Sequence record: MN850631.1
DNA length: 64,000 nucleotides
Source of the DNA: Escherichia phage mio
Direction: 5' to 3' (one strand)
Below the pieces are notes generated by a model. It saw only the letters and a program-made list of their open reading frames with translations. It did no database searches and was not told the DNA's origin. This document shows, in pieces, positions 6,277 to 20,070 of the stretch. The position numbers were made by a program, and so were the translations under genes. The first letter of the stretch is position 1, and each line of letters opens with the position of its first letter.

Positions 6277-6566
6277 GGTGTTACCTCTCTGCGTGATACT
6301 TTACCATTTACAGTTATCTCATAAGCTTCTAATAAATCACTTTCAGATTTAACAGGGCTTTTAAAAGTATCATCATAAACATTAATTTGCAATACAGGCT
6401 TTTTATACTCCCTGCAACTATTCCATAAGCAAATTACTACGCGACGGCCTTTTATTTTGCCGTGTAACCATTCCATAACATCATGACTATTTCTTGATGT
6501 CTCGATAAAATCGATTTTATTGAGTAATTTGCTTAGATTTTCACGCACTTGATTTGATAATTTCAT
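6270..6566 (-). CDS. hypothetical early protein (98 aa)
   Basis: ATG 6564-6566 with RBS in conserved element. Confidence 0.55.
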   Translation of the reverse strand: MKLSNQVRENLSKLLNKIDFIETSRNSHDVMEWLHGKIKGRRVVICLWNSCREYKKPVLQINVYDDTFKSPVKSESDLLEAYEITVNGKVSRREVTPC

Positions 6567-6658
6567 TTTTGAATCTCCTAGTTTAAGGGCTTTATTTGAT
6601 AAATCTCTTTATCTGGGGCTATCCTACCAGCTTGTTAGCCCCGTGTAAAGAAATCTAT
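6567..6658 (-). promoter_or_regulatory. conserved intercistronic element, hairpin type B variant
   Basis: Core CATTTTTGAATCTCCTAGTTTAAGGGCTTTATTTG plus GGGGCTA-N14-TAGCCCC then GTGTAAAGAAATC. Confidence 0.45.
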
Positions 6659-7171: not shown

Positions 7172-7266
7172 TTTTGAATCTCCTAGTTTAAGGACTTGAT
7201 TTAGTGGTAAAGCTCTTTATCTGGGGCTTAAGATATCAACTTTTAAGCCCCTTGTAAAGTACTTTA
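7172..7266 (-). promoter_or_regulatory. conserved intercistronic element, hairpin type B
   Basis: Core plus GGGGCTTAA-N13-TTAAGCCCC then TTGTAAAGTACTTT. Confidence 0.5.
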
Positions 7267-7524
7267 TCAGATTAAATTGCCAGTTAATGATAAGTGCATT
7301 TTATAGCCTTTTTTGGTAAAAACGTTCACTTTACCGAGTGATTTTACACCTTTAAAAAGGTTGTTTGAACTGCGTTTTAAGGTTAGTTGCTTATCAGCTT
7401 TCACGCCCCACCTTACAGCAGTTTGTTTTCCGTTGTCAACCACTTTTCCGCATAACTTTTTAGCCATAACGCGAGCGTCATCACGAGTCTTTGCAGTAAT
7501 TACAACGTTTTTGATAATAGCCAT
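7267..7524 (-). CDS. hypothetical early protein (85 aa), lysine-rich; start moved from TTG (7539) to ATG (7524)
   Basis: ATG 7522-7524 with GGAGA RBS inside conserved core; track start codon is TTG. Confidence 0.5.
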   Translation of the reverse strand: MAIIKNVVITAKTRDDARVMAKKLCGKVVDNGKQTAVRWGVKADKQLTLKRSSNNLFKGVKSLGKVNVFTKKGYKMHLSLTGNLI

Positions 7525-7613
7525 TTTTAAGTTCTCCAATTTAGGATTTAGTGGTAAAGCTCTTTATCTGGGGCTTACTTTATCGAACTATAAGCCCCTT
7601 GTAAAGTACTTTA
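7525..7613 (-). promoter_or_regulatory. conserved intercistronic element, hairpin type B
   Basis: Variant core CATTTTTAAGTTCTCCAATTTAGG plus GGGGCTTA-CTTTATCGAACTA-TAAGCCCC. Confidence 0.5.
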
Positions 7614-7994
7614 TTAGTTAATTTTGAAAATTGTCACATAACCATCGCTCCCGATGATTTGTGATACCCCAGCTTTTTCTACTTGATAGCCCATATTTTC
7701 AAGATGGTAAACAGCATCATCGTAACCATATGCGCCACCCTGATAACGTCGCTTATCACATTTTATCAGGTTTTTACCGCGTCCAGCAAGTGCATTCAGT
7801 ACGGCTTTTTCACTTGATAGTGTACCATCTATCATGGTTGCCGTGTAATGGTTGATTTTATTCCCATTAATATCATACTTAAAATTGAATGCGTGAACAA
7901 TAATCAATTTACCGTTAAATTTTTCATCAAGTGACTTCTCCAGTGCGTTGCGGAAGTTGTCTTTATTGATGAATTTCGGTGCACGATAAGCCAT
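7614..7994 (-). CDS. hypothetical early protein (126 aa)
   Basis: ATG 7992-7994 with RBS in conserved element. Confidence 0.6.
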   Translation of the reverse strand: MAYRAPKFINKDNFRNALEKSLDEKFNGKLIIVHAFNFKYDINGNKINHYTATMIDGTLSSEKAVLNALAGRGKNLIKCDKRRYQGGAYGYDDAVYHLENMGYQVEKAGVSQIIGSDGYVTIFKIN

Positions 7995-8082
7995 TTTAGA
8001 ATCTCCTAGTTTAAGGTAAGTTAGTAAAGCTCTTTATCTGGGGCTTAAGATATCAGCTTTTAAGCCCCTTGTAAAGTACTTT
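7995..8082 (-). promoter_or_regulatory. conserved intercistronic element, hairpin type B
   Basis: Core CATTTTAGAATCTCCTAGTTTAAGG plus GGGGCTTAA-N13-TTAAGCCCC then TTGTAAAGTACTTT. Confidence 0.5.
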
Positions 8083-8539: not shown

Positions 8540-8725
8540 CACCTACCTGCACAATTCTAAAATGATTTTTCTTGCCCGACCTGAGTGGGTTCTGCACGTT
8601 TTGAAAATGAAAAAGCTCTTTGGAGATTACCTGCACAGTTTGAAAATGAATTTTCTCTTTGGAGTTCAAAATTCTCTCTACAGATTTCTCTACAGAACTC
8701 TACCTGCACAATTCTAAAATGAAAA
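8540..8725. repeat. direct repeats in ORF-free gap (CTACCTGCACAATTCTAAAATGA twice; two tandem ~38 bp CTGCACNTTTTGAAAATGA...CTCTTTGGAG units)
   Basis: Identical 23-mer at 8543-8565 and 8700-8722; related units at about 8590-8627 and 8628-8665. Confidence 0.55.
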
Positions 8726-8795
8726 AGCCCTCCTTACCTGAAAAATTTACCAGATAAGAAAGGCTTAGTCTATTGTGAATATTCTACAGAGTTTC

Positions 8796-9581
8796 TTAGT
8801 TCTTTGCGTCTAAGAAGGTAACTTCCGGTGAAGAGAAAATTCCCTCAACATCCTCATCAGTTCTTGCATAGATATATGTATCTGCATCACTGCCAAATGT
8901 TACTGCAATTCTGTGATTGCTCTTCGACAGGTGGGTAACTAGAGCGTTACTTAGAGACATCTTTTCAACCGGAGGGTTACTTTGATGTACCTTACCTTTT
9001 CTTCGTCTGAAGAGGGTAACTGCATCGTCAGTGAACACTACTACACCTGCAAAGTATTCTGGTTCACAGTAGTTCTTCCAACCTGAGCGTAACTTGTGGT
9101 ACATCTCTCCTTCGTAGACATATAGATAGACATCTACACTCTTCATCACCTGATTAATGATAACGGTGACGGCTTGAGGGTCAAGTCCACCGATACCTGC
9201 ACCAATCATAGGTAAACCAACTTTCTTCAACTGATTAACTTCACAGTATCTGTTAAGTTGCTTCAAAGATGACTCTAAAGCACTGTATCGGGCATCTTTA
9301 CCAGTCTTAAGCTGAGTGTAAAGATTGGCTATACGGCCTTGTTTTAAACGTGCTACAGAGAAATTGCCTAGCAAATTTTCACAGGGTTTGTGACCTATAC
9401 CACCTGCATACAGATAAACTTCTGTATCGGTCTCATATGCTTTTGGGTAAAGTTTAGAAATCTTATCAGCGATACCTGCACCCATTAAGTTCATACAGTT
9501 GCAACCGTGACCAATGATATCAAACTTACCTTTATCAAATGCGGAGAAGATATCCCCATTGATGATTTTTACAATACCCAT
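8796..9581 (-). CDS. macrodomain protein (TARG1/DarG-like ADP-ribose binding/hydrolase fold) with ~100 aa C-terminal extension
   Basis: N-terminal GDIFSAFDKGKFDIIGHGCNCMNLMGAGIA...GLPMIGAGIGGL matches the macrodomain pattern; ATG 9579-9581 overlaps upstream stop. Confidence 0.65.
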   Translation of the reverse strand: MGIVKIINGDIFSAFDKGKFDIIGHGCNCMNLMGAGIADKISKLYPKAYETDTEVYLYAGGIGHKPCENLLGNFSVARLKQGRIANLYTQLKTGKDARYSALESSLKQLNRYCEVNQLKKVGLPMIGAGIGGLDPQAVTVIINQVMKSVDVYLYVYEGEMYHKLRSGWKNYCEPEYFAGVVVFTDDAVTLFRRRKGKVHQSNPPVEKMSLSNALVTHLSKSNHRIAVTFGSDADTYIYARTDEDVEGIFSSPEVTFLDAKN

Positions 9582-9782
9582 CTAGCATCTCTCCCAAGAT
9601 TCTTTATCTTCTGAAGGTTTTACACGTTGTCCTTCGTGGTCTACCCAGATACATCCACAACCTTCACAGATTACTGGCATTGCATAGCCAGCTTTAAAGT
9701 CATCTTCAGTGATAAGACCTTTTAAGTCACCTGTATCACGTCCAAACATTTCGATAGCACAATCTTTGCAGAAGTCAGCCAT
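9582..9782 (-). CDS. small Cys-rich protein (66 aa), putative zinc ribbon; track start (GTG 9860) replaced by ATG 9782
   Basis: CKDC...CEGCGC motifs; ATG 9780-9782 overlaps upstream stop by 8 nt. Confidence 0.45.
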   Translation of the reverse strand: MADFCKDCAIEMFGRDTGDLKGLITEDDFKAGYAMPVICEGCGCIWVDHEGQRVKPSEDKESWERC

Positions 9783-10002
9783 TGATAATTGCCTCTTGAA
9801 TGATGATACCTTTACCACAACGACTTTTAAAGTCTTCCAATGGCTGGGAGATAAAGCCACGTAAGCAATAACTGAATGCTAATTTTTTCCTGTAGACTAT
9901 CACATCATTTGCTGTAAAAGGAATCACTTCATTCCTTCCAATAAATACTGCTGAACGTACAATCTTGCAGGTCTTTTTATCTCTGGCTAGTATTACTTTC
10001 AT
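9775..10002 (-). CDS. hypothetical protein (75 aa)
   Basis: ATG 10000-10002; part of tightly overlapping leftward operon. Confidence 0.45.
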   Translation of the reverse strand: MKVILARDKKTCKIVRSAVFIGRNEVIPFTANDVIVYRKKLAFSYCLRGFISQPLEDFKSRCGKGIIIQEAIING

Positions 10003-10303
10003 AGTTTACCTTCTCAGTTAGCTCATACAAGTCAACATGCTCAATACTATCAATGTTGATACCAATCTTTTTGAAGCGTTCTATCACTTCGTTGTCAGTC
10101 ATCCATATCAGACACCAATGATTATGGATGGATTCTTCAAGAAGGTCAACACAGTCTTTAAAAGTTTTTGTATCACTTCTTGTTCCGACTACTGCGATTG
10201 TCCCATACAACCACTTACCATTACCATAAGATACTTGTGCTACGCCAACTTCTTTATCTTTCTCGTAGTAAACGGCTACAAAATCTCTTCCGTTAATCTG
10301 CAT
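9977..10303 (-). CDS. hypothetical protein (108 aa); start moved to ATG 10303 (track start TTG 10342)
   Basis: ATG 10301-10303 preceded by AGAGGAA RBS; alternative ATG at 10333. Confidence 0.45.
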   Translation of the reverse strand: MQINGRDFVAVYYEKDKEVGVAQVSYGNGKWLYGTIAVVGTRSDTKTFKDCVDLLEESIHNHWCLIWMTDNEVIERFKKIGINIDSIEHVDLYELTEKVNYESNTSQR

Positions 10304-10607
10304 TTGTAAGTTCCTCTGTTGGTAATTCACCATTCTCAGCAAAGTATTGAAGGTACGGCAACAGTTCTTTTACCTGTTCTTGATTGAGCTTCATTCTTTG
10401 ATTACCTACAAAATCTTTGCCTACTAACGCTGGGATATCAAGTGTTTTCCAGCCACCATCTAGGTACTGAATAGAGACCTCTTTAGCACCTAACCAGATA
10501 CATGGTTCATATGATGAACTTTCTTGTAAAGTACAAATCTCTCCTTTAGCATCTTTAAATTCTGCATAAGAAAATCCACGATTTGTTGGCTGGAATTGCA
10601 TAATCAT
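10293..10607 (-). CDS. hypothetical protein (104 aa)
   Basis: ATG 10605-10607; overlaps neighbours. Confidence 0.5.
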   Translation of the reverse strand: MIMQFQPTNRGFSYAEFKDAKGEICTLQESSSYEPCIWLGAKEVSIQYLDGGWKTLDIPALVGKDFVGNQRMKLNQEQVKELLPYLQYFAENGELPTEELTNAD

Positions 10608-10873
10608 TTCCTCGTTTTAAGAACTGCTAAGATTTCTTTAGAGTCTGGTAAGAACCATGTGTAGTGATTCTCTTTGATTTCTGGATGAGTGTCAACCTTT
10701 ATTTTGCACTCTTTACCAACATGCTTCAGTTGTGCTGTGATGCCTTGCATAAAAATATGACACATCACGTTATCCATAATGGTCGGTGAGAAATCAATTC
10801 GCATATAAGTTTCTTTTGGTCGTGGTAGCAGTAAGTACCCTTCTACATAGAAAGTGTCTTCATTCTCTGTCAT
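10604..10873 (-). CDS. hypothetical protein (89 aa)
   Basis: ATG 10871-10873; ATGA-type overlap with upstream gene. Confidence 0.5.
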   Translation of the reverse strand: MTENEDTFYVEGYLLLPRPKETYMRIDFSPTIMDNVMCHIFMQGITAQLKHVGKECKIKVDTHPEIKENHYTWFLPDSKEILAVLKTRK

Positions 10874-11139
10874 TGCTGTTTGTTCCCTAATAAAAGCATA
10901 TCAATAAGGTTATTAGCTTTGATTGTGCACTGGTAAAAACCATCACGATAAAACTCAAGGGCTGCTGCCACATCACTACCAGTATTACCTTTGACAGTGA
11001 ATCTTGACTCTTCTTGAGTGTACTTGTCACCCTCACTCACTTGGGAGTTTTTGAATGTACTGTTCACTTTGTTCGTTGAACACCCTGACATAATTATCAG
11101 TAACACAAACATTATAAAACTCTGGCTTAGTTTTTTCAT
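10870..11139 (-). CDS. putative lipoprotein (89 aa), o-spanin-like; gene starts inside the upstream TM-protein gene in another frame
   Basis: Signal MKKLSQSFIMFVLLIIMSGC with lipobox-like MSGC; AGAGGT RBS 8 nt upstream of ATG 11137-11139. Confidence 0.45.
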   Translation of the reverse strand: MKKLSQSFIMFVLLIIMSGCSTNKVNSTFKNSQVSEGDKYTQEESRFTVKGNTGSDVAAALEFYRDGFYQCTIKANNLIDMLLLGNKQQ

Positions 11140-11380
11140 ATGTTAGTACCTCTTTTGTATGCTTATTCTTAGCAAGCACATCTTTCAAATCGTTTTTGTA
11201 ATTGGCGCTTAGTGTGGCTAAACCTTCCTGATAAGCATCTTTAGCAACACTTATTAGTTTCTCATTATTTAGCTCAGCTTCAGCAACTTGATAGTCTCGG
11301 TAAGAGTATCCTCCCCAGACACCCGCTCCAACTAAGAAAACAATTATGAAAGTAGCTTGACAGAACTCTTTAAATGTCAT
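11033..11380 (-). CDS. membrane protein with N-terminal TM helix and coiled-coil-like periplasmic part (115 aa), i-spanin-like
   Basis: N-terminus FIIVFLVGAGVWGGYSY hydrophobic; AGGAGA RBS 7 nt upstream of ATG 11378-11380; overlaps lipoprotein ORF by 107 nt. Confidence 0.5.
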   Translation of the reverse strand: MTFKEFCQATFIIVFLVGAGVWGGYSYRDYQVAEAELNNEKLISVAKDAYQEGLATLSANYKNDLKDVLAKNKHTKEVLTYEKTKPEFYNVCVTDNYVRVFNEQSEQYIQKLPSE

Positions 11381-11394
11381 TTAACAATCTCCTG

Positions 11395-11420
11395 AAATGA
11401 AAAAGGCTCCCGAAGGAGCC
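11395..11420 (-). terminator. putative intrinsic terminator
   Basis: GGCTCC-CGAA-GGAGCC hairpin with T-run on the minus strand. Confidence 0.45.
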
Positions 11421-11432
11421 TGTATCTTAACC

Positions 11433-11907: not shown

Positions 11908-12603
11908 TCAATGTTTAACTAACATGGTTTTGATGTGTGGAAGGATTCTGTTCACCTTCTGCACATTCTTCTCTGTATCTTCTATAAAACATACTATATT
12001 AAAGTAAGGCAGAATGCAAGACTGAATCATCCTCACTTTCAAACTTTCTGCACTTATAGAGTTAGTCCCAAAACCACGCATAAAAAGCATGTAGTCATGC
12101 TCTGTGTTATGCCTTAAAAACATCTCAGTAGGTATTCTCTGAGATTCACCTCTCGCTGTCAAGAGTCCAACAGCAGCATGATTAGCAATTGCATCAATGA
12201 TATTGAAAACATACGTTGGTTTTGCTCTTACAGAGTCAAGAAGATTAGTGTACTGTAAAAATGAACCATCAGTCAATTCCGTTGAACAATCTTCGTGATT
12301 AAAATTTGTAAGAACACCATCAATATCTGCTAAGATAAGGTTACCTTTCTCTACAAGGTCTTTATTGACTATGACTAAGCTATCACGACTTACACCTATA
12401 GTCTGTCCAGTCTCTTTATCTTCAACATTCACAATTGGCTCTGATGTGTGGAACTCTTCAAGTGAACATACAACTTCTCTCGCAGTGTCTTCAAAATCCC
12501 TGCACTGTTCTGGAGTCCATACACAGGAATCAAGACCTAACTCATGAGGATGTAAGTCATAAGCATGACACAGTACTTCATCAGACTTTCTTAATTTTTT
12601 CAT
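11908..12603 (-). CDS. HAD-superfamily phosphatase-like protein (231 aa) with N-terminal domain of unknown function
   Basis: LADIDGVLTNF (DxDG motif I) and GLLTARGE (motif II-like) in the C-terminal half. Confidence 0.45.
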   Translation of the reverse strand: MKKLRKSDEVLCHAYDLHPHELGLDSCVWTPEQCRDFEDTAREVVCSLEEFHTSEPIVNVEDKETGQTIGVSRDSLVIVNKDLVEKGNLILADIDGVLTNFNHEDCSTELTDGSFLQYTNLLDSVRAKPTYVFNIIDAIANHAAVGLLTARGESQRIPTEMFLRHNTEHDYMLFMRGFGTNSISAESLKVRMIQSCILPYFNIVCFIEDTEKNVQKVNRILPHIKTMLVKH

Positions 12604-17361: not shown

Positions 17362-19143
17362 TTAAAGCTGCTTGTCAATATTATTTCGAATATCACCAAG
17401 AGATGTGTAACCGTACTGCTCAGAGTCACTAAAGACTAAACGTAAAGCACAAGCTGGATGTTCAAGTGCATCTGCAAAGCTCTGGAATCCATAGCCATCT
17501 ACAGCTTTCAACTTATCACCATCCCACATAGGTGCTACACCACCAAAAGCAGACTTCTTAACACCACTATCTGTTTTAGGGTCTTTTGCAAGCATAATCT
17601 CTTTACCACCAATGCTTGCAAGAGTTGCTTTAACAGCAAATGCAAAGGTGTCACGAGTCATGTACTGGTAAGTGTAAGAGCCTACGCCAAACACTACGTT
17701 AGAGCTTGCAAAACCCATTTCATACAGACGCTTCAGGATTTCGTTTGCACGTTCCAGCGTGATAGAGTCACCATAGATAAGGCCGATATGCTCATCAAGT
17801 ACCTTAAACCCTTTAGAGTTAATAGTTCCTCCAAAGATGTTGTACAGTGTCTTAATAGCTCCATCAATTTCAGCTACAGGACGTGTTACAACGTTTGCAG
17901 AACCAACCATATAAGCATTTTTCAACATCACTGTATCAGCAACTTCAAAGTCTTCTCTGTCAACAACCATTTCGTAGCCTTCTGACAGTAGCCATCCAGC
18001 AATACCATAGTTGATGTTTTCAAGCTTCATGTTCAGAACAGCATTCAACATTGTGTCACTAGCTTCCAGCTTGCTTAGGTGCTCGTAATAAGCCTTCTTA
18101 GCACACTCTAAGTGGATTGCTTTATAACCTGTGACAATATGTACAGGGTCTCCAGAGTCAGGGCGAATTACCAGCTTACCATCCCGTTCCATAATTTCTT
18201 TACGAAGTGCTGGTAAGATTTCTGACACAGTTCTCCAGAAGTTATAAGTATCTGAAACAATACTTGCAATACCAGTTGGGTAAGTTTCTGTTAAGAAACG
18301 ACGGAAGGTTTGCAACTCACCTTTAAAGCGTCTTTCTTCTTCAATCAACTCATTACCACCTTCCCAAGCAATGTTTGCACACATTACAGAGTGCTCAGTG
18401 GCTGGTACAGAACTACCAATATCAGAGATTGGGTAAGACTGTCCATAGATTCGTTTAGCCGTATACACAGCAGGGAAGCTATCAGTTCCTTTAAAGCTGG
18501 TTAAGTGGCCTACAGCGTTAAATGCGTCATCAGTAAAGCCTGACATACCACGCATAGCAAAGTCATGGCACTGATAAGGTAAATGCAAGTCATTGTCACA
18601 AGTAAGGTCAGCCCACTTCTTACAGGTACGCTTGTAGTGTAATGCAATAGTAGCAATGGTGCAAGCTTTCCAAATCTCAGCAGAGAAAGCATCCTCCAGA
18701 TACCCTGCTACCCAATGGAAACCTGAAACAGTGTTCTGGAAGACAATCATTGGGACACGCATTGGAACAACTGTGCCTTCTTCTACAGCGTATACTTCAA
18801 CTGGTAGATAACCTAAGTCGTGAAGTGCTTCCCAATGCTCTCGACCGATAGCATCTTTACCCAGAACACCATTCATGACTTCTAAGATTTCATCAATTGC
18901 TTCTTTTTTATCACGTTCAAAGAAGGTGGCGTTCCAGTGGTCTATCAAGTAATCTTTAACAAAACGTTGAATACCGAAAGCCACTACACCATCAATTGCT
19001 AAGGGGCTGTTAAACCATTTATCACTACGTGGTGTCAGGTTGAACATCAAGTATTCTGTTGCACTAGGATACTGGTAAACATGACCAGATTTGTAAGCAT
19101 CTGCGTTTAAACCTGCTGGTACTGCATAAAGTGATTTAGTCAT
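17362..19143 (-). CDS. nadV: nicotinamide phosphoribosyltransferase family protein (NAMPT/NadV-like; possibly a Namat-type nicotinamide ADP-ribose transferase)
   Basis: 593 aa, N-terminus ...AYKSGHVYQYP... typical of NAMPT family; adjacent to Prs-like gene. Confidence 0.8.
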   Translation of the reverse strand: MTKSLYAVPAGLNADAYKSGHVYQYPSATEYLMFNLTPRSDKWFNSPLAIDGVVAFGIQRFVKDYLIDHWNATFFERDKKEAIDEILEVMNGVLGKDAIGREHWEALHDLGYLPVEVYAVEEGTVVPMRVPMIVFQNTVSGFHWVAGYLEDAFSAEIWKACTIATIALHYKRTCKKWADLTCDNDLHLPYQCHDFAMRGMSGFTDDAFNAVGHLTSFKGTDSFPAVYTAKRIYGQSYPISDIGSSVPATEHSVMCANIAWEGGNELIEEERRFKGELQTFRRFLTETYPTGIASIVSDTYNFWRTVSEILPALRKEIMERDGKLVIRPDSGDPVHIVTGYKAIHLECAKKAYYEHLSKLEASDTMLNAVLNMKLENINYGIAGWLLSEGYEMVVDREDFEVADTVMLKNAYMVGSANVVTRPVAEIDGAIKTLYNIFGGTINSKGFKVLDEHIGLIYGDSITLERANEILKRLYEMGFASSNVVFGVGSYTYQYMTRDTFAFAVKATLASIGGKEIMLAKDPKTDSGVKKSAFGGVAPMWDGDKLKAVDGYGFQSFADALEHPACALRLVFSDSEQYGYTSLGDIRNNIDKQL

Positions 19144-19188
19144 CTTTTAATCTCTCTCAAAATGGGGCTTTCAAGCCCCTATAAACTT

Positions 19189-20070
19189 TCAATCAAGGTT
19201 TGCTACAGTAACTTGACCATAATGTGTTAAGCCACGGTCTTTAGCTTCGCCTAAAGAGTTTGTAGTGTAAACATGGTCGATACCATTGTCAAGAAGGTTT
19301 TCAACACCTTTAGAGAAGATACCATGTGTTACATAGAGTTCCACACGTTTTGCACCTGCTTCACGTAGGTGTTTTGCTGCTTCTATGAAGGTTCGACCAC
19401 CATCACAGATATCATCCAAAATCATGACGGTTTTATCTGTCAAGTCAACATCATCAAGGATTCGCATACCAGTGATTTCACCAGTCTTAAGGTTGCGTAC
19501 TTTAGACATTGTGATGTATGGTTTATCCACCTCTTTAGCGGTCTCTGCAATCTTCTTAGCAGCACCTGCATCTGGGGCGACTAAGTAATCAACCAGTGGG
19601 TCATTTGCATAGTGGACTGCAATTTCCTTTTGAGGAATACTCTGGAAGCAGTTAAACAGGTTATCTGGTACATAACTGTGAGGGTCAACTGCACAGACTG
19701 CATCAAAACCCATTGCATTAACCTGTTGTGCAAACACTTTCAAAGCTGCTGCATCACCTTTAAACATGTGACGGTCGTAACGTGCATTTGGCAAATAGTA
19801 AAAGATAGCAGTCTTCATAGCAAACTTATGAGGTACTAAATCATCAATTGCTTCTTTAGCAAGTGCCACAGCAAATAATGTGTCTTTGTCATAACCCTTT
19901 ACAATCATAATCACGTTGTTGATGGATGATGCAGCATAAGCAGTAAAATCAACAAACTCTGGTGAAAAATGTCCACCAATCTCACCAGAAGGAAATTGGA
20001 CGATGTTAAACTCTTCTTCATGAGTCCCTTTAGTTGGTGAATGAACTGTAACACGGATAGATGTTTTCAT
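19189..20070 (-). CDS. ribose-phosphate pyrophosphokinase family protein (Prs-like; possibly an ADP-ribose pyrophosphokinase)
   Basis: 293 aa; PRPP-binding loop VMILDDICDGGRT; C-terminus YVTHGIFSKG. Confidence 0.8.
   Translation of the reverse strand: MKTSIRVTVHSPTKGTHEEEFNIVQFPSGEIGGHFSPEFVDFTAYAASSINNVIMIVKGYDKDTLFAVALAKEAIDDLVPHKFAMKTAIFYYLPNARYDRHMFKGDAAALKVFAQQVNAMGFDAVCAVDPHSYVPDNLFNCFQSIPQKEIAVHYANDPLVDYLVAPDAGAAKKIAETAKEVDKPYITMSKVRNLKTGEITGMRILDDVDLTDKTVMILDDICDGGRTFIEAAKHLREAGAKRVELYVTHGIFSKGVENLLDNGIDHVYTTNSLGEAKDRGLTHYGQVTVANLD

What the first reader, a model, noticed from the sequence alone, without database searches (positions are those of the whole stretch)
8796..9581. Phage-encoded TARG1/DarG-like macrodomain protein with an extra C-terminal domain
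The N-terminal ~160 aa carry the GDIFS...HGCNC..MGAGIA pattern typical of TARG1/DarG-type macrodomains, which remove ADP-ribose from macromolecules. In a lytic phage this is a plausible antidote to host ADP-ribosylating defences (for example DarT-type DNA ADP-ribosyltransferases) or a way to reverse ADP-ribosylation marks. The ~100 aa C-terminal region has no motif I recognise. The gene is the last member of a tightly overlapping operon of small ORFs.
Basis: partly seen in the sequence, partly recalled or inferred. Interest (0 to 1): 0.7.

Follow-up and report, generated by a model that had tools for sequence, protein, structure and literature searches.

The report
Phage ADP-ribose-removing enzyme with extra domain
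This gene of a Felix O1-type E. coli/Salmonella phage encodes an ADP-ribose-processing macrodomain, related to two recently described phage counter-defence enzymes, fused to a fast-evolving 100-residue domain of unknown fold; the kind is known, the fused variant is unstudied.

Summary
ORF 8796-9581 (- strand, 261 aa) encodes an N-terminal macrodomain (Pfam Macro, above its cut-off; AlphaFold pLDDT 90; best solved-structure matches TARG1, DarG and Poa1p). It is followed by about 100 residues with no detectable relative in Pfam, PDB, BFVD or 1.84 billion representative proteins.

The window is a Felixounavirus. The gene is the last of a run of abutting or overlapping small genes and is followed by a strong terminator hairpin.

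The macrodomain is 34% identical to T4 Tk.4 (AdfM), whose deletion sensitises T4 to DarTG2, so an anti-DarT role is the best-supported reading.

Two corrections apply:
- The catalytic lysine of TARG1 (K84) and DarG (K80) is an invariant glutamine (Q90) here and in Tk.4, so this is not a TARG1/DarG-type active site.
- The same glutamine-type clade includes Adpp, an ADP-ribose-1''-phosphate phosphatase that feeds the phage NAD+-rebuilding pathway NARP1 against aRES defence. This phage carries a NARP1-type gene pair 8 kb away.

The C-terminal domain has no conserved polar residues, diverges twice as fast as the macrodomain, and is swapped or unrecognisable between related phages. This suggests a targeting or partner-binding module. 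The finding is a new variant of a known kind, of moderate interest.

The parts
8796..9581 (-). Whole gene: 261-aa two-domain macrodomain protein (stop codon TAA at 8796-8798)
   Evidence: ORF list. PHROG 335 at E = 7.5e-113. 99% identical to the 'putative phosphatase' of phage SME50.
9114..9581 (-). Macrodomain, residues 1-156 (Tk.4/Adpp-type, with Gln at the TARG1/DarG lysine position)
   Evidence: Pfam Macro. AF2 model and Foldseek matches to TARG1, DarG and Poa1p. 34% identity to T4 Tk.4.
9468..9509 (-). H25-G-C-N28-C...M33-G-A-G-I-A38: first ADP-ribose-binding loop with conserved His and Asn. N28 aligns with PhiKZ AdfM N23, whose mutation lowers activity.
   Evidence: Invariant H25, G26, N28, C29, M33, G36 and A38 in 31 homologues. 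Alignment with PhiKZ gp104 and DarG. N23A result from the paper.
9312..9326 (-). N86-L-Y-T-Q90 motif. Q90 occupies the position of the catalytic Lys of TARG1 (K84) and DarG (K80).
   Evidence: phmmer alignment to TARG1, MAFFT alignments and BLAST against PhiKZ gp104 all agree. N86, L87, T89 and Q90 are invariant.
9186..9212 (-). P124-M-I-G-A-G-I-G-G132: second (diphosphate-binding) glycine-rich loop
   Evidence: P124, G127 and G129 are invariant; I126, A128, I130 and G132 are at least 90% conserved.
8799..9113 (-). C-terminal region, residues 157-261: helix 158-167, six beta-strands (179-239), helix 242-249. An orphan, fast-evolving domain without conserved polar residues.
   Evidence: AF2 models. 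No Pfam, PDB, PADLOC or BFVD relatives. The profile search of 1.84e9 proteins finds only macro-fused family members. Only P174, G179 and Y236 are conserved. Pairwise identity 31% against 58% for the macrodomain.
8725..8766 (-). Intrinsic-terminator-like hairpin (17 bp) followed by UUUUUCAUUUU; end of the transcription unit
   Evidence: Pattern scan. RNA fold -26.2 kcal/mol, z = -4.05, 0 of 200 shuffles as stable.
9582..9782 (-). Upstream 66-aa CxxC...CxxC (zinc-ribbon-like) ORF. Its TAG abuts the macro ATG, and a GGGAGAG ribosome-binding site for the macro gene lies in its 3' end.
   Evidence: PHROG 2210, unknown function. Conserved in the same position in Michonne and BPS17L1.
9775..11380 (-). 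Remainder of the overlapping gene run: i-spanin 11033-11380, o-spanin 10870-11139, and four small ORFs of unknown function. It is preceded by a terminator-like hairpin at 11404-11421.

Best explanation
The gene encodes a phage counter-defence enzyme against ADP-ribose-based immunity.

Macrodomain (residues 1-156):
- It binds ADP-ribose through the two conserved glycine loops and hydrolyses the bond at ribose C1''.
- The most likely physiological substrate is ADP-ribosyl-thymidine placed on phage single-stranded DNA by host DarT2. On that reading the protein is the Felixounavirus counterpart of T4 Tk.4/AdfM and keeps phage DNA replicable in DarTG2-carrying hosts.
- Chemistry cannot proceed through the TARG1/DarG lysine, because that residue is glutamine here. 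Catalysis is inferred to rely on the His25/Asn28 pair and substrate-assisted water activation.
- The same C1''-directed chemistry could also dephosphorylate ADP-ribose-1''-phosphate (see rival 1), so dual use is possible.

C-terminal ~100 residues:
- This is a non-catalytic beta-rich module predicted to pack on the macrodomain.
- It is inferred to direct the enzyme to a partner or substrate (modified DNA or the replisome, or the host toxin itself). Its rapid turnover would track host variation.

What is shown and what is inferred:
- Shown: fold, motif conservation, homology, gene context and evolutionary pattern.
- Inferred: substrate, catalytic mechanism, expression timing and the C-terminal role.
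For: - Macro fold and intact ADP-ribose loops.
- The closest characterised homologue by score and by signature motifs (HGCNC, NLYTQ) is T4 Tk.4: 81 bits, 34% identity. A clean tk.4 knockout sensitises T4 to DarTG2 in E. coli.
- A second phage macrodomain named AdfM (PhiKZ gp104) removes DarT2 ADP-ribose from ssDNA in vitro. It falls in the same PHROG 335 as the window protein and Tk.4.
- The only defence-related profiles hit are DarG: NCBIfam E = 1.2e-12, PADLOC E = 3.7e-13.
- The gene lies in the rIIA/rIIB array, not inside the NARP1 operon.
- Arms-race signature. A 41%-identical allele sits in otherwise 95%-identical Felixounaviruses, with sharp recombination edges. The C-terminal domain diverges twice as fast as the macrodomain. 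In Kolesnikvirus the equivalent 100-residue tail is unrecognisable.
- No invariant polar residue in the C-terminal domain, which argues against a second enzyme.
Against: - No experiment exists on any Felixounavirus protein.
- The T4 evidence is genetic only. The catalytic Lys essential in DarG and TARG1 is Gln in both T4 Tk.4 and this protein, so DNA glycohydrolase chemistry is unproven for this clade.
- Some NARP1-associated macrodomains score as high as Tk.4 (Bobbio, 81.6 bits).
- The neighbour-joining tree does not resolve whether the two-domain clade is nearer Tk.4 or Adpp (14-46% bootstrap).
- The C-terminal domain is not consistently basic (pI 4.6-9.5), which weakens a simple DNA-binding role. 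It shows no similarity to the DarG C-terminal domain.
Confidence: 0.5

Rival explanations
1. It is an Adpp-type ADP-ribose-1''-phosphate phosphatase. Host aRES (RES-domain) defence splits NAD+ into nicotinamide and ADPR-1''-P, which NARP1 cannot use. The macrodomain would remove the 1''-phosphate so that the phage's own Adps and Namat can rebuild NAD+.
For: - Vibrio phage Gary Adpp is a macrodomain that converts ADPR-1P to ADPR and is needed for NARP1-AP to beat aRES. aRES occurs in E. coli, Klebsiella and Enterobacter.
- Adpp and other NARP1-linked macrodomains share the His-x-x-Asn and Tyr-x-Gln motifs with the window protein. They align at 27-33% identity, up to 81.6 bits.
- The window carries Namat-like (17362-19143) and Adps-like (19189-20070) genes on the same strand, 8 kb away. 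NARP1 was discovered in the Felixounavirus Bas63.
- One NARP1-linked macrodomain (Acinetobacter phage phiAbaA1) has the same HGCNC/YTQ signature.
- The long-standing annotation is 'phosphatase'.
Against: - The gene is not within or next to the NARP1 operon, unlike every Adpp listed. No Escherichia or Salmonella phage is in that list.
- Validated Gary Adpp is a weaker match (52.8 bits) than T4 Tk.4 (81 bits), and most Adpp carry HQ[AC]NC / YGQY rather than HGCNC / YTQ.
- T4 has a Tk.4 of this signature. NARP1 genes were not looked for in T4 here; that T4 lacks them is recalled, not tested.
- A small-molecule phosphatase gives no obvious use for a fast-evolving extra domain.
Confidence: 0.3
2. 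It is a non-hydrolytic ADP-ribose binder or sponge. Having lost the TARG1/DarG lysine, it would sequester ADP-ribose-derived immune signals or shield ADP-ribosylated sites, with the C-terminal domain adding binding surface or oligomerisation.
For: - Catalytic Lys and Asp equivalents are absent.
- Both binding loops are intact.
- One database record calls the BPS17L1-type allele a 'high-affinity ADP-ribose binding module'.
Against: - Adpp, which has the same Gln, is catalytically active.
- His25 and Asn28 are invariant. The equivalent Asn matters for catalysis in PhiKZ AdfM.
Confidence: 0.07
3. It is a housekeeping Poa1p-like ADP-ribose-1''-phosphate phosphatase in an RNA-repair pathway. It would work with the nearby PNKP-type phosphatase to clear by-products of 2'-phosphotransferase-dependent RNA ligation after host tRNA or mRNA cleavage.
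For: - The Poa1p-like N-terminal motif HxCNC is present.
- A HAD_PNKP-like gene lies 2.3 kb upstream and is syntenic in distant relatives.
- Phage macrodomains have been linked to RNA-repair contexts in comparative surveys.
Against: - No Tpt1/KptA, 2H phosphoesterase or RNA ligase was seen in the neighbourhood or in the annotated relative.
- The 'PNK' matches only the phosphatase part of the PNK families.
- The allelic turnover fits conflict rather than housekeeping.
Confidence: 0.05
4. It reverses ADP-ribosylation of RNA or protein by other host systems (for example the mRNA ADP-ribosylating CmdTAC-type toxins), or by a phage-encoded transferase.
For: Macrodomains are promiscuous on 1''-linked conjugates. 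The phage invests in NAD+/ADP-ribose conflict.
Against: - No ADP-ribosyltransferase is annotated in the close relative's 128 genes. Many of those genes are unannotated, and the window itself was not scanned exhaustively.
- No homologue is known to have this role.
Confidence: 0.05

Closest known systems
T4 Tk.4 = AdfM (anti-DarT factor, macrodomain)
   Same: - Same PHROG (335).
- 34% identity over the whole macrodomain (E = 8e-24).
- Identical signature motifs HGCNC, NLYTQ and IGAGIG, with Gln in place of the DarG/TARG1 lysine.
- Enterobacterial virulent myovirus.

   Different: - Tk.4 is a single 155-aa domain; the window protein has an added 105-residue C-terminal domain.
- The genomic context differs: tk/vs region in T4, against rIIA-rIIB-spanin array here.
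- The Tk.4 function is known only from genetics.
Adpp, the NARP1-associated macrodomain phosphatase (Vibrio phage Gary KNV71_gp137)
   Same: - Same Gln-type clade, with conserved His-x-x-Asn, Tyr-x-Gln and glycine loops.
- 27% identity to Gary Adpp and up to 33% to other NARP1-linked members.
- The host phage also has a NARP1-type gene pair.

   Different: - Adpp genes sit inside or within two genes of the NARP1 operon and are single-domain.
- Most carry HQ[AC]NC / YGQY.
- The window gene is 8 kb from NARP1 and has the extra domain.
PhiKZ gp104 AdfM and bacterial DarG (DarG2) macrodomain
   Same: Macro fold. Conserved Asn (N23 in PhiKZ, N28 here). Both glycine loops. DarG is the only NCBIfam and PADLOC hit.
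   Different: - These keep the catalytic 'PTK' lysine; the window protein has 'YTQ'.
- Only 24-27% identity.
- DarG has a DarT-binding C-terminal domain and an adjacent darT gene, and neither is present here.
Human TARG1/OARD1
   Same: Best PDB match by sequence (E = 2e-5) and by Foldseek (E = 3.9e-10, target-normalised TM 0.81).
   Different: Catalytic Lys84 and Asp125 are Gln90 and Gly131 here.
Yeast Poa1p (ADP-ribose-1''-phosphate phosphatase)
   Same: The N-terminal HSCNC...GGGIA motif resembles HGCNC...GAGIA. Poa1p also lacks the lysine. Foldseek E = 6e-9.
   Different: Sequence similarity is confined to about 50 N-terminal residues. Poa1p has Ser where Gln90 sits.

Membership tests
Macrodomain superfamily (Pfam PF01661) | Profile score above the curated gathering threshold | tested here: met
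   32.3 bits against a cut-off of 22, E = 1.1e-7, profile positions 2-117 of 118.
Macrodomain superfamily (Pfam PF01661) | Three-layer alpha/beta macro fold | tested here: met
   AF2 pLDDT 90.3. Foldseek probability 1.0 to many solved macrodomains, target-normalised TM 0.8.
Macrodomain superfamily (Pfam PF01661) | Two glycine-rich ADP-ribose/diphosphate-binding loops | tested here: met
   MGAGIA (33-38) and IGAGIGG (126-132) are invariant or at least 90% conserved in 31 homologues.
Phage AdfM (anti-DarT2 macrodomain; T4 Tk.4 type) | Sequence homology to T4 Tk.4 with shared signature motifs | tested here: met
   34% identity, E = 8e-24. HGCNC and NLYTQ are shared. Same PHROG 335.
Phage AdfM (anti-DarT2 macrodomain; T4 Tk.4 type) | Closer to Tk.4 than to functionally different relatives (Adpp) | tested here: inconclusive
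   Scores: Tk.4 81.3 bits, Bobbio NARP1-linked macro 81.6 bits, Gary Adpp 52.8 bits. Neighbour-joining bootstrap at the deep nodes is 14-46%.
Phage AdfM (anti-DarT2 macrodomain; T4 Tk.4 type) | Protects the phage from DarTG2 and removes ADP-ribose from DarT2-modified ssDNA | not testable with these tools
   Needs plaque assays and an in vitro de-ADP-ribosylation assay. No literature on Felixounavirus was found.
Phage AdfM (anti-DarT2 macrodomain; T4 Tk.4 type) | Stand-alone single macrodomain of about 155-165 aa | tested here: not met
   261 aa with an added C-terminal domain.
DarG antitoxin (NCBIfam NF048014, PADLOC DarG) | Equivalog score cut-off | tested here: not met
   47.7 bits against a cut-off of 250. 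Only profile positions 4-153 of 338 are matched.
DarG antitoxin (NCBIfam NF048014, PADLOC DarG) | Catalytic lysine (K80, 'PTK') | tested here: not met
   Gln90 aligns there in three independent alignments.
DarG antitoxin (NCBIfam NF048014, PADLOC DarG) | C-terminal DarT-binding domain | tested here: not met
DarG antitoxin (NCBIfam NF048014, PADLOC DarG) | Adjacent darT toxin gene | tested here: not met
   The ORFs scanned within ±3 kb give no Pfam hit and only unknown-function, spanin or PNK PHROGs.
TARG1/OARD1-type hydrolase | Catalytic Lys84 and Asp125 | tested here: not met
   Gln90 and Gly131 occupy the aligned positions.
Adpp (NARP1-associated ADPR-1''-P phosphatase) | Homology to validated Adpp and shared His/Asn/Gln motifs | tested here: met
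   27% identity and 52.8 bits to Gary Adpp, up to 33% to other members. H25, N28 and Q90 are conserved.
Adpp (NARP1-associated ADPR-1''-P phosphatase) | Encoded within two genes of Adps/Namat | tested here: not met
   NARP1-type genes lie at 17362-20070 and the macro gene at 8796-9581, with rIIA, rIIB and about 12 other genes between.
Adpp (NARP1-associated ADPR-1''-P phosphatase) | Phage genome carries NARP1 | tested here: met
   Namat-like (NAPRTase + NAMPT_N domains) and PRPS-like genes are adjacent. NARP1 was defined in the Felixounavirus Bas63.
Adpp (NARP1-associated ADPR-1''-P phosphatase) | Converts ADPR-1''-P to ADPR | not testable with these tools
   Needs an LC-MS enzyme assay.

The most novel reading that the evidence does not exclude
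The orphan C-terminal domain is a new fold that acts as a second, independent anti-defence module. It might directly bind and block a host ADP-ribosyltransferase or NADase (DarT2, or aRES as aRad1 does), or dock the eraser onto the replisome or ssDNA. The protein would then be a two-pronged functional analogue of DarG, built from an unrelated domain. The swapping of C-terminal modules among Ounavirinae would encode host-defence specificity. The Gln-type active site would also define a lysine-independent mechanism able to cleave both N-glycosidic (thymine) and phosphate substituents at ribose C1''.
Probability: 0.2. Interest if true: 0.7.

Novelty: new variant of a known kind. Interest (0 to 1): 0.45.

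Why it matters
Felix O1-type phages are used in Salmonella and E. coli typing, biocontrol and therapy, so their ability to escape ADP-ribose and NAD+-based immunity affects host range.

This gene links two newly described counter-defence activities that use nearly the same enzyme scaffold: AdfM against DarTG2, and Adpp against aRES. It occurs in a phage that also carries a NARP1-type gene pair, which makes it a good test case for whether one macrodomain serves both roles.

It also shows that the Tk.4/Adpp clade works without the lysine regarded as essential in DarG and TARG1.

The fast-evolving, exchangeable C-terminal module may be a specificity determinant or a new inhibitor domain.

Tried and rejected
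- C-terminal domain occurring elsewhere. A profile search of 1.84e9 representatives found only macro-fused proteins. P0032 is a truncated ORF call. The large hits P0033, P0034, P0036 and P0037 are unrelated multi-domain or repetitive proteins by Pfam, and P0038-P0039 were not examined.
- C-terminal domain as a fused homologue of T4 neighbours Tk.3 or Vs: hhalign probability 0.1 or lower.
- C-terminal domain as DarG-like: unmatched by the DarG profiles.
- Conserved basic DNA-binding surface: pI ranges from 4.6 to 9.5 across the family.
- Separate expression of the C-terminal domain from Met160. A promoter-like site at 9184-9157 and a GAAGGAG motif exist, but the Shine-Dalgarno-like sequence is not conserved in Michonne or BPS17L1.
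- The Kolesnikvirus tail as a homologue of this domain: hhalign probability 0.06.
- Resolving AdfM against Adpp by phylogeny: the neighbour-joining bootstrap is too weak. A first attempt timed out.
- Literature on Felixounavirus and DarTG: none found.
- Residues mutated in Adpp could not be read from the text.

Full report
**What is there**

The ORF at 8796-9581 on the - strand is real and encodes 261 residues.
- Residues 25-141 match Pfam Macro above its curated cut-off (32.3 against 22 bits).
- The whole protein matches PHROG 335 'phosphatase' at E = 7.5e-113.
- An AlphaFold2 model built on 31 homologues is confident (pLDDT 90.3, pTM 0.89).
- Its best solved-structure matches are TARG1, Thermus and Mycobacterium DarG, and yeast Poa1p (Foldseek E = 4e-10 to 6e-9, target-normalised TM about 0.8).

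The window is a Felixounavirus (92-96% nucleotide identity to many Felix O1-like phages). About 250 of 50,697 phage records carry a full-length homologue. About 2,500 carry only the macrodomain, T4 among them.

**Context**

On the - strand, the genes from the i-spanin (11033-11380) down to the macro gene overlap by 4-26 nt or abut. The stop codon of a 66-residue CxxC...CxxC ORF is followed directly by the macro ATG, and a GGGAGAG ribosome-binding site lies in that ORF's 3' end.

Thirty bases after the macro stop codon sits a 17-bp hairpin followed by a U-run (-26 kcal/mol, z = -4.05).

The wider array on the same strand runs: PRPS-like, Nampt-like, rIIA, rIIB, lysin, HAD/PNKP-like phosphatase, spanins, small ORFs, macro. 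The rIIA-rIIB...HAD_PNKP...macro order is kept in distant metagenomic relatives whose macro proteins are only 34-38% identical.

**What kind of macrodomain**

Three independent alignments put Gln90 of the invariant NLYTQ motif at the position of the catalytic lysine of TARG1 (K84, 'ITK') and DarG (K80, 'PTK'). These are phmmer to TARG1, BLAST to PhiKZ gp104 and MAFFT with DarG, TARG1 and Poa1p. TARG1 Asp125 aligns with Gly131. The TARG1 sequence was recalled from memory and checked only over the stretch shown. The Poa1p sequence was verified in full.

The protein also scores far below the DarG equivalog cut-off (47.7 against 250 bits), matches only the macro half of that profile, and has no darT neighbour among the ORFs scanned. 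It is therefore a relative of TARG1 and DarG in fold, but not a member of either catalytic type.

The conserved polar residues are His25 and Asn28. Asn28 aligns with Asn23 of PhiKZ AdfM, whose mutation lowers activity.

**Characterised relatives**

- T4 Tk.4 is 34% identical (E = 8e-24) and shares HGCNC and NLYTQ, including the glutamine. A 2025 preprint found tk.4 as the single hit in a transposon screen on DarTG2 hosts. A clean knockout sensitised T4, and the authors named the protein AdfM.
- PhiKZ gp104, also named AdfM, removes DarT2 ADP-ribose from ssDNA in vitro. It is a true DarG-like protein with the lysine and is only 24% identical to the window protein.
- A 2026 preprint showed that a macrodomain inside some NARP1 operons (Adpp, Vibrio phage Gary) dephosphorylates ADP-ribose-1''-phosphate. 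That compound is the product of the RES-domain defence aRES. Dephosphorylation lets NARP1 rebuild NAD+.

Sequences from that paper's table align with the window protein at 27-33% identity and share the His, Asn and Gln residues. All three validated proteins and the window protein fall in PHROG 335.

The window phage encodes an adjacent Namat-like and Adps-like gene pair. NARP1 was first found in the Felixounavirus Bas63.

**Weighing the two readings**

For AdfM:
- T4 Tk.4 is the best-scoring validated homologue (81 against 53 bits for Gary Adpp).
- The signature HGCNC/YTQ is that of Tk.4, while most Adpp have HQ[AC]NC/YGQY.
- The gene is 8 kb from the NARP1-type genes, whereas every listed Adpp lies within two genes of them, and no enterobacterial phage is listed.

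For Adpp:
- The phage has a NARP1-type pair, and aRES occurs in its hosts.
- One NARP1-linked macrodomain scores the same as Tk.4, and another has the Tk.4 signature.

The neighbour-joining tree supports the two-domain clade (95% bootstrap) but not its placement (14-46%).

Both reactions break a substituent off ribose C1'', so one enzyme could do both. I rank AdfM-like action first (0.5 for the overall statement) and Adpp second (0.3).

**The C-terminal domain**

Residues 157-261 form a helix, six beta-strands and a terminal helix.
- A profile search of 1.84 billion representative proteins found it only fused to this macrodomain.
- Only Pro174, Gly179 and Tyr236 are conserved, so it is unlikely to be an enzyme.
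- Its charge varies (pI 4.6-9.5).
- It diverges about twice as fast as the macrodomain: mean pairwise identity 31% against 58%, lower in 99% of pairs.

Phage BPS17L1 is otherwise 95% identical to the window and has a 100% identical upstream 66-residue protein. Its macro gene body has nevertheless been replaced by an allele only 41% identical. Nucleotide similarity stops near 9439 and resumes near 8743.

In Kolesnikvirus, another Ounavirinae genus, the protein is also 260 residues. Its last 100 residues have no detectable similarity to this domain.

The high pTM, and the rise in confidence of helix 158-167 in the full-length model, suggest that the domain packs on the macrodomain. I could not inspect the coordinates.

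The pattern fits a variable targeting or partner-binding module. That reading is an inference.

**Verdict**

The gene is a known, widely annotated phage macrodomain. The functions of its homologues were worked out only in 2025-2026.

The Felixounavirus form is an unstudied two-domain variant. It has a lysine-free active site, and its substrate is ambiguous between DarT2-modified DNA and ADPR-1''-phosphate. I rate it a new variant of a known kind, interest 0.45.

Noticed in passing
window 17362-20070 (- strand): Adjacent Nampt-like (593 aa; NAPRTase + NAMPT_N domains) and PRPS-like (293 aa) genes. They correspond to the NARP1 pair (Namat + Adps) first described in the Felixounavirus Bas63. They lie on the same strand and in the same gene array as rIIA, rIIB and the macro gene.
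   Followed up: partly
window 9439-8743 compared with L008 (Salmonella phage BPS17L1): Cassette-like allelic replacement. Flanks are 86-95% identical and the upstream 66-aa protein is 100% identical. From about codon 48 to the terminator, the macro gene has no nucleotide similarity and the proteins are 41% identical.
   Followed up: yes
window 9582-9782 (- strand): A 66-aa protein with two CxxC pairs (zinc-ribbon-like; PHROG 2210, unknown function). It abuts the macro gene and is conserved in that position in Felixounavirus and Mooglevirus, but not in Pectobacterium phage Arno18.
   Followed up: partly
window 11908-12603 (- strand): The ORF annotated 'polynucleotide kinase' in relatives matches the broader PNK PHROGs 415 and 505 only over residues 84-219. 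Syntenic homologues carry a weak HAD_PNKP Pfam hit. No Walker A motif was seen by eye and there was no Pfam hit here. It may be a phosphatase only.
   Followed up: partly
window 8544-8737: Four to five copies of TACCTGCACA(A/G)TT..AAAATGA lie in the 500-bp gap downstream of the macro gene, overlapping the terminator region. Their function is unknown; they may be a regulator-binding array.
   Followed up: no
window 7172-7265, 7519-7612, 7989-8082 (partial copy at 6561-6620): A repeated ~94-nt intergenic cassette precedes successive small - strand genes. It contains a GGGGCTT...AAGCCCC hairpin and a TTTACA-like hexamer. These look like repeated terminator/promoter units of the early region.
   Followed up: no
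L011 1998-2780 (Erwinia phage vEam_PM_6, Kolesnikvirus): The syntenic macro protein, directly after the spanins, is also 260 aa. Its C-terminal 100 residues are unrelated in sequence to the Felixounavirus C-terminal domain (hhalign probability 0.06).
   Followed up: partly
window 11404-11421 (- strand): A second terminator-like hairpin (AGGCTCC-TTCG-GGAGCCT plus a T-run) lies just upstream of the i-spanin. This suggests the spanins, four small ORFs and the macro gene form one transcription unit, an unusual pairing of lysis genes with a presumed counter-defence gene.
   Followed up: no
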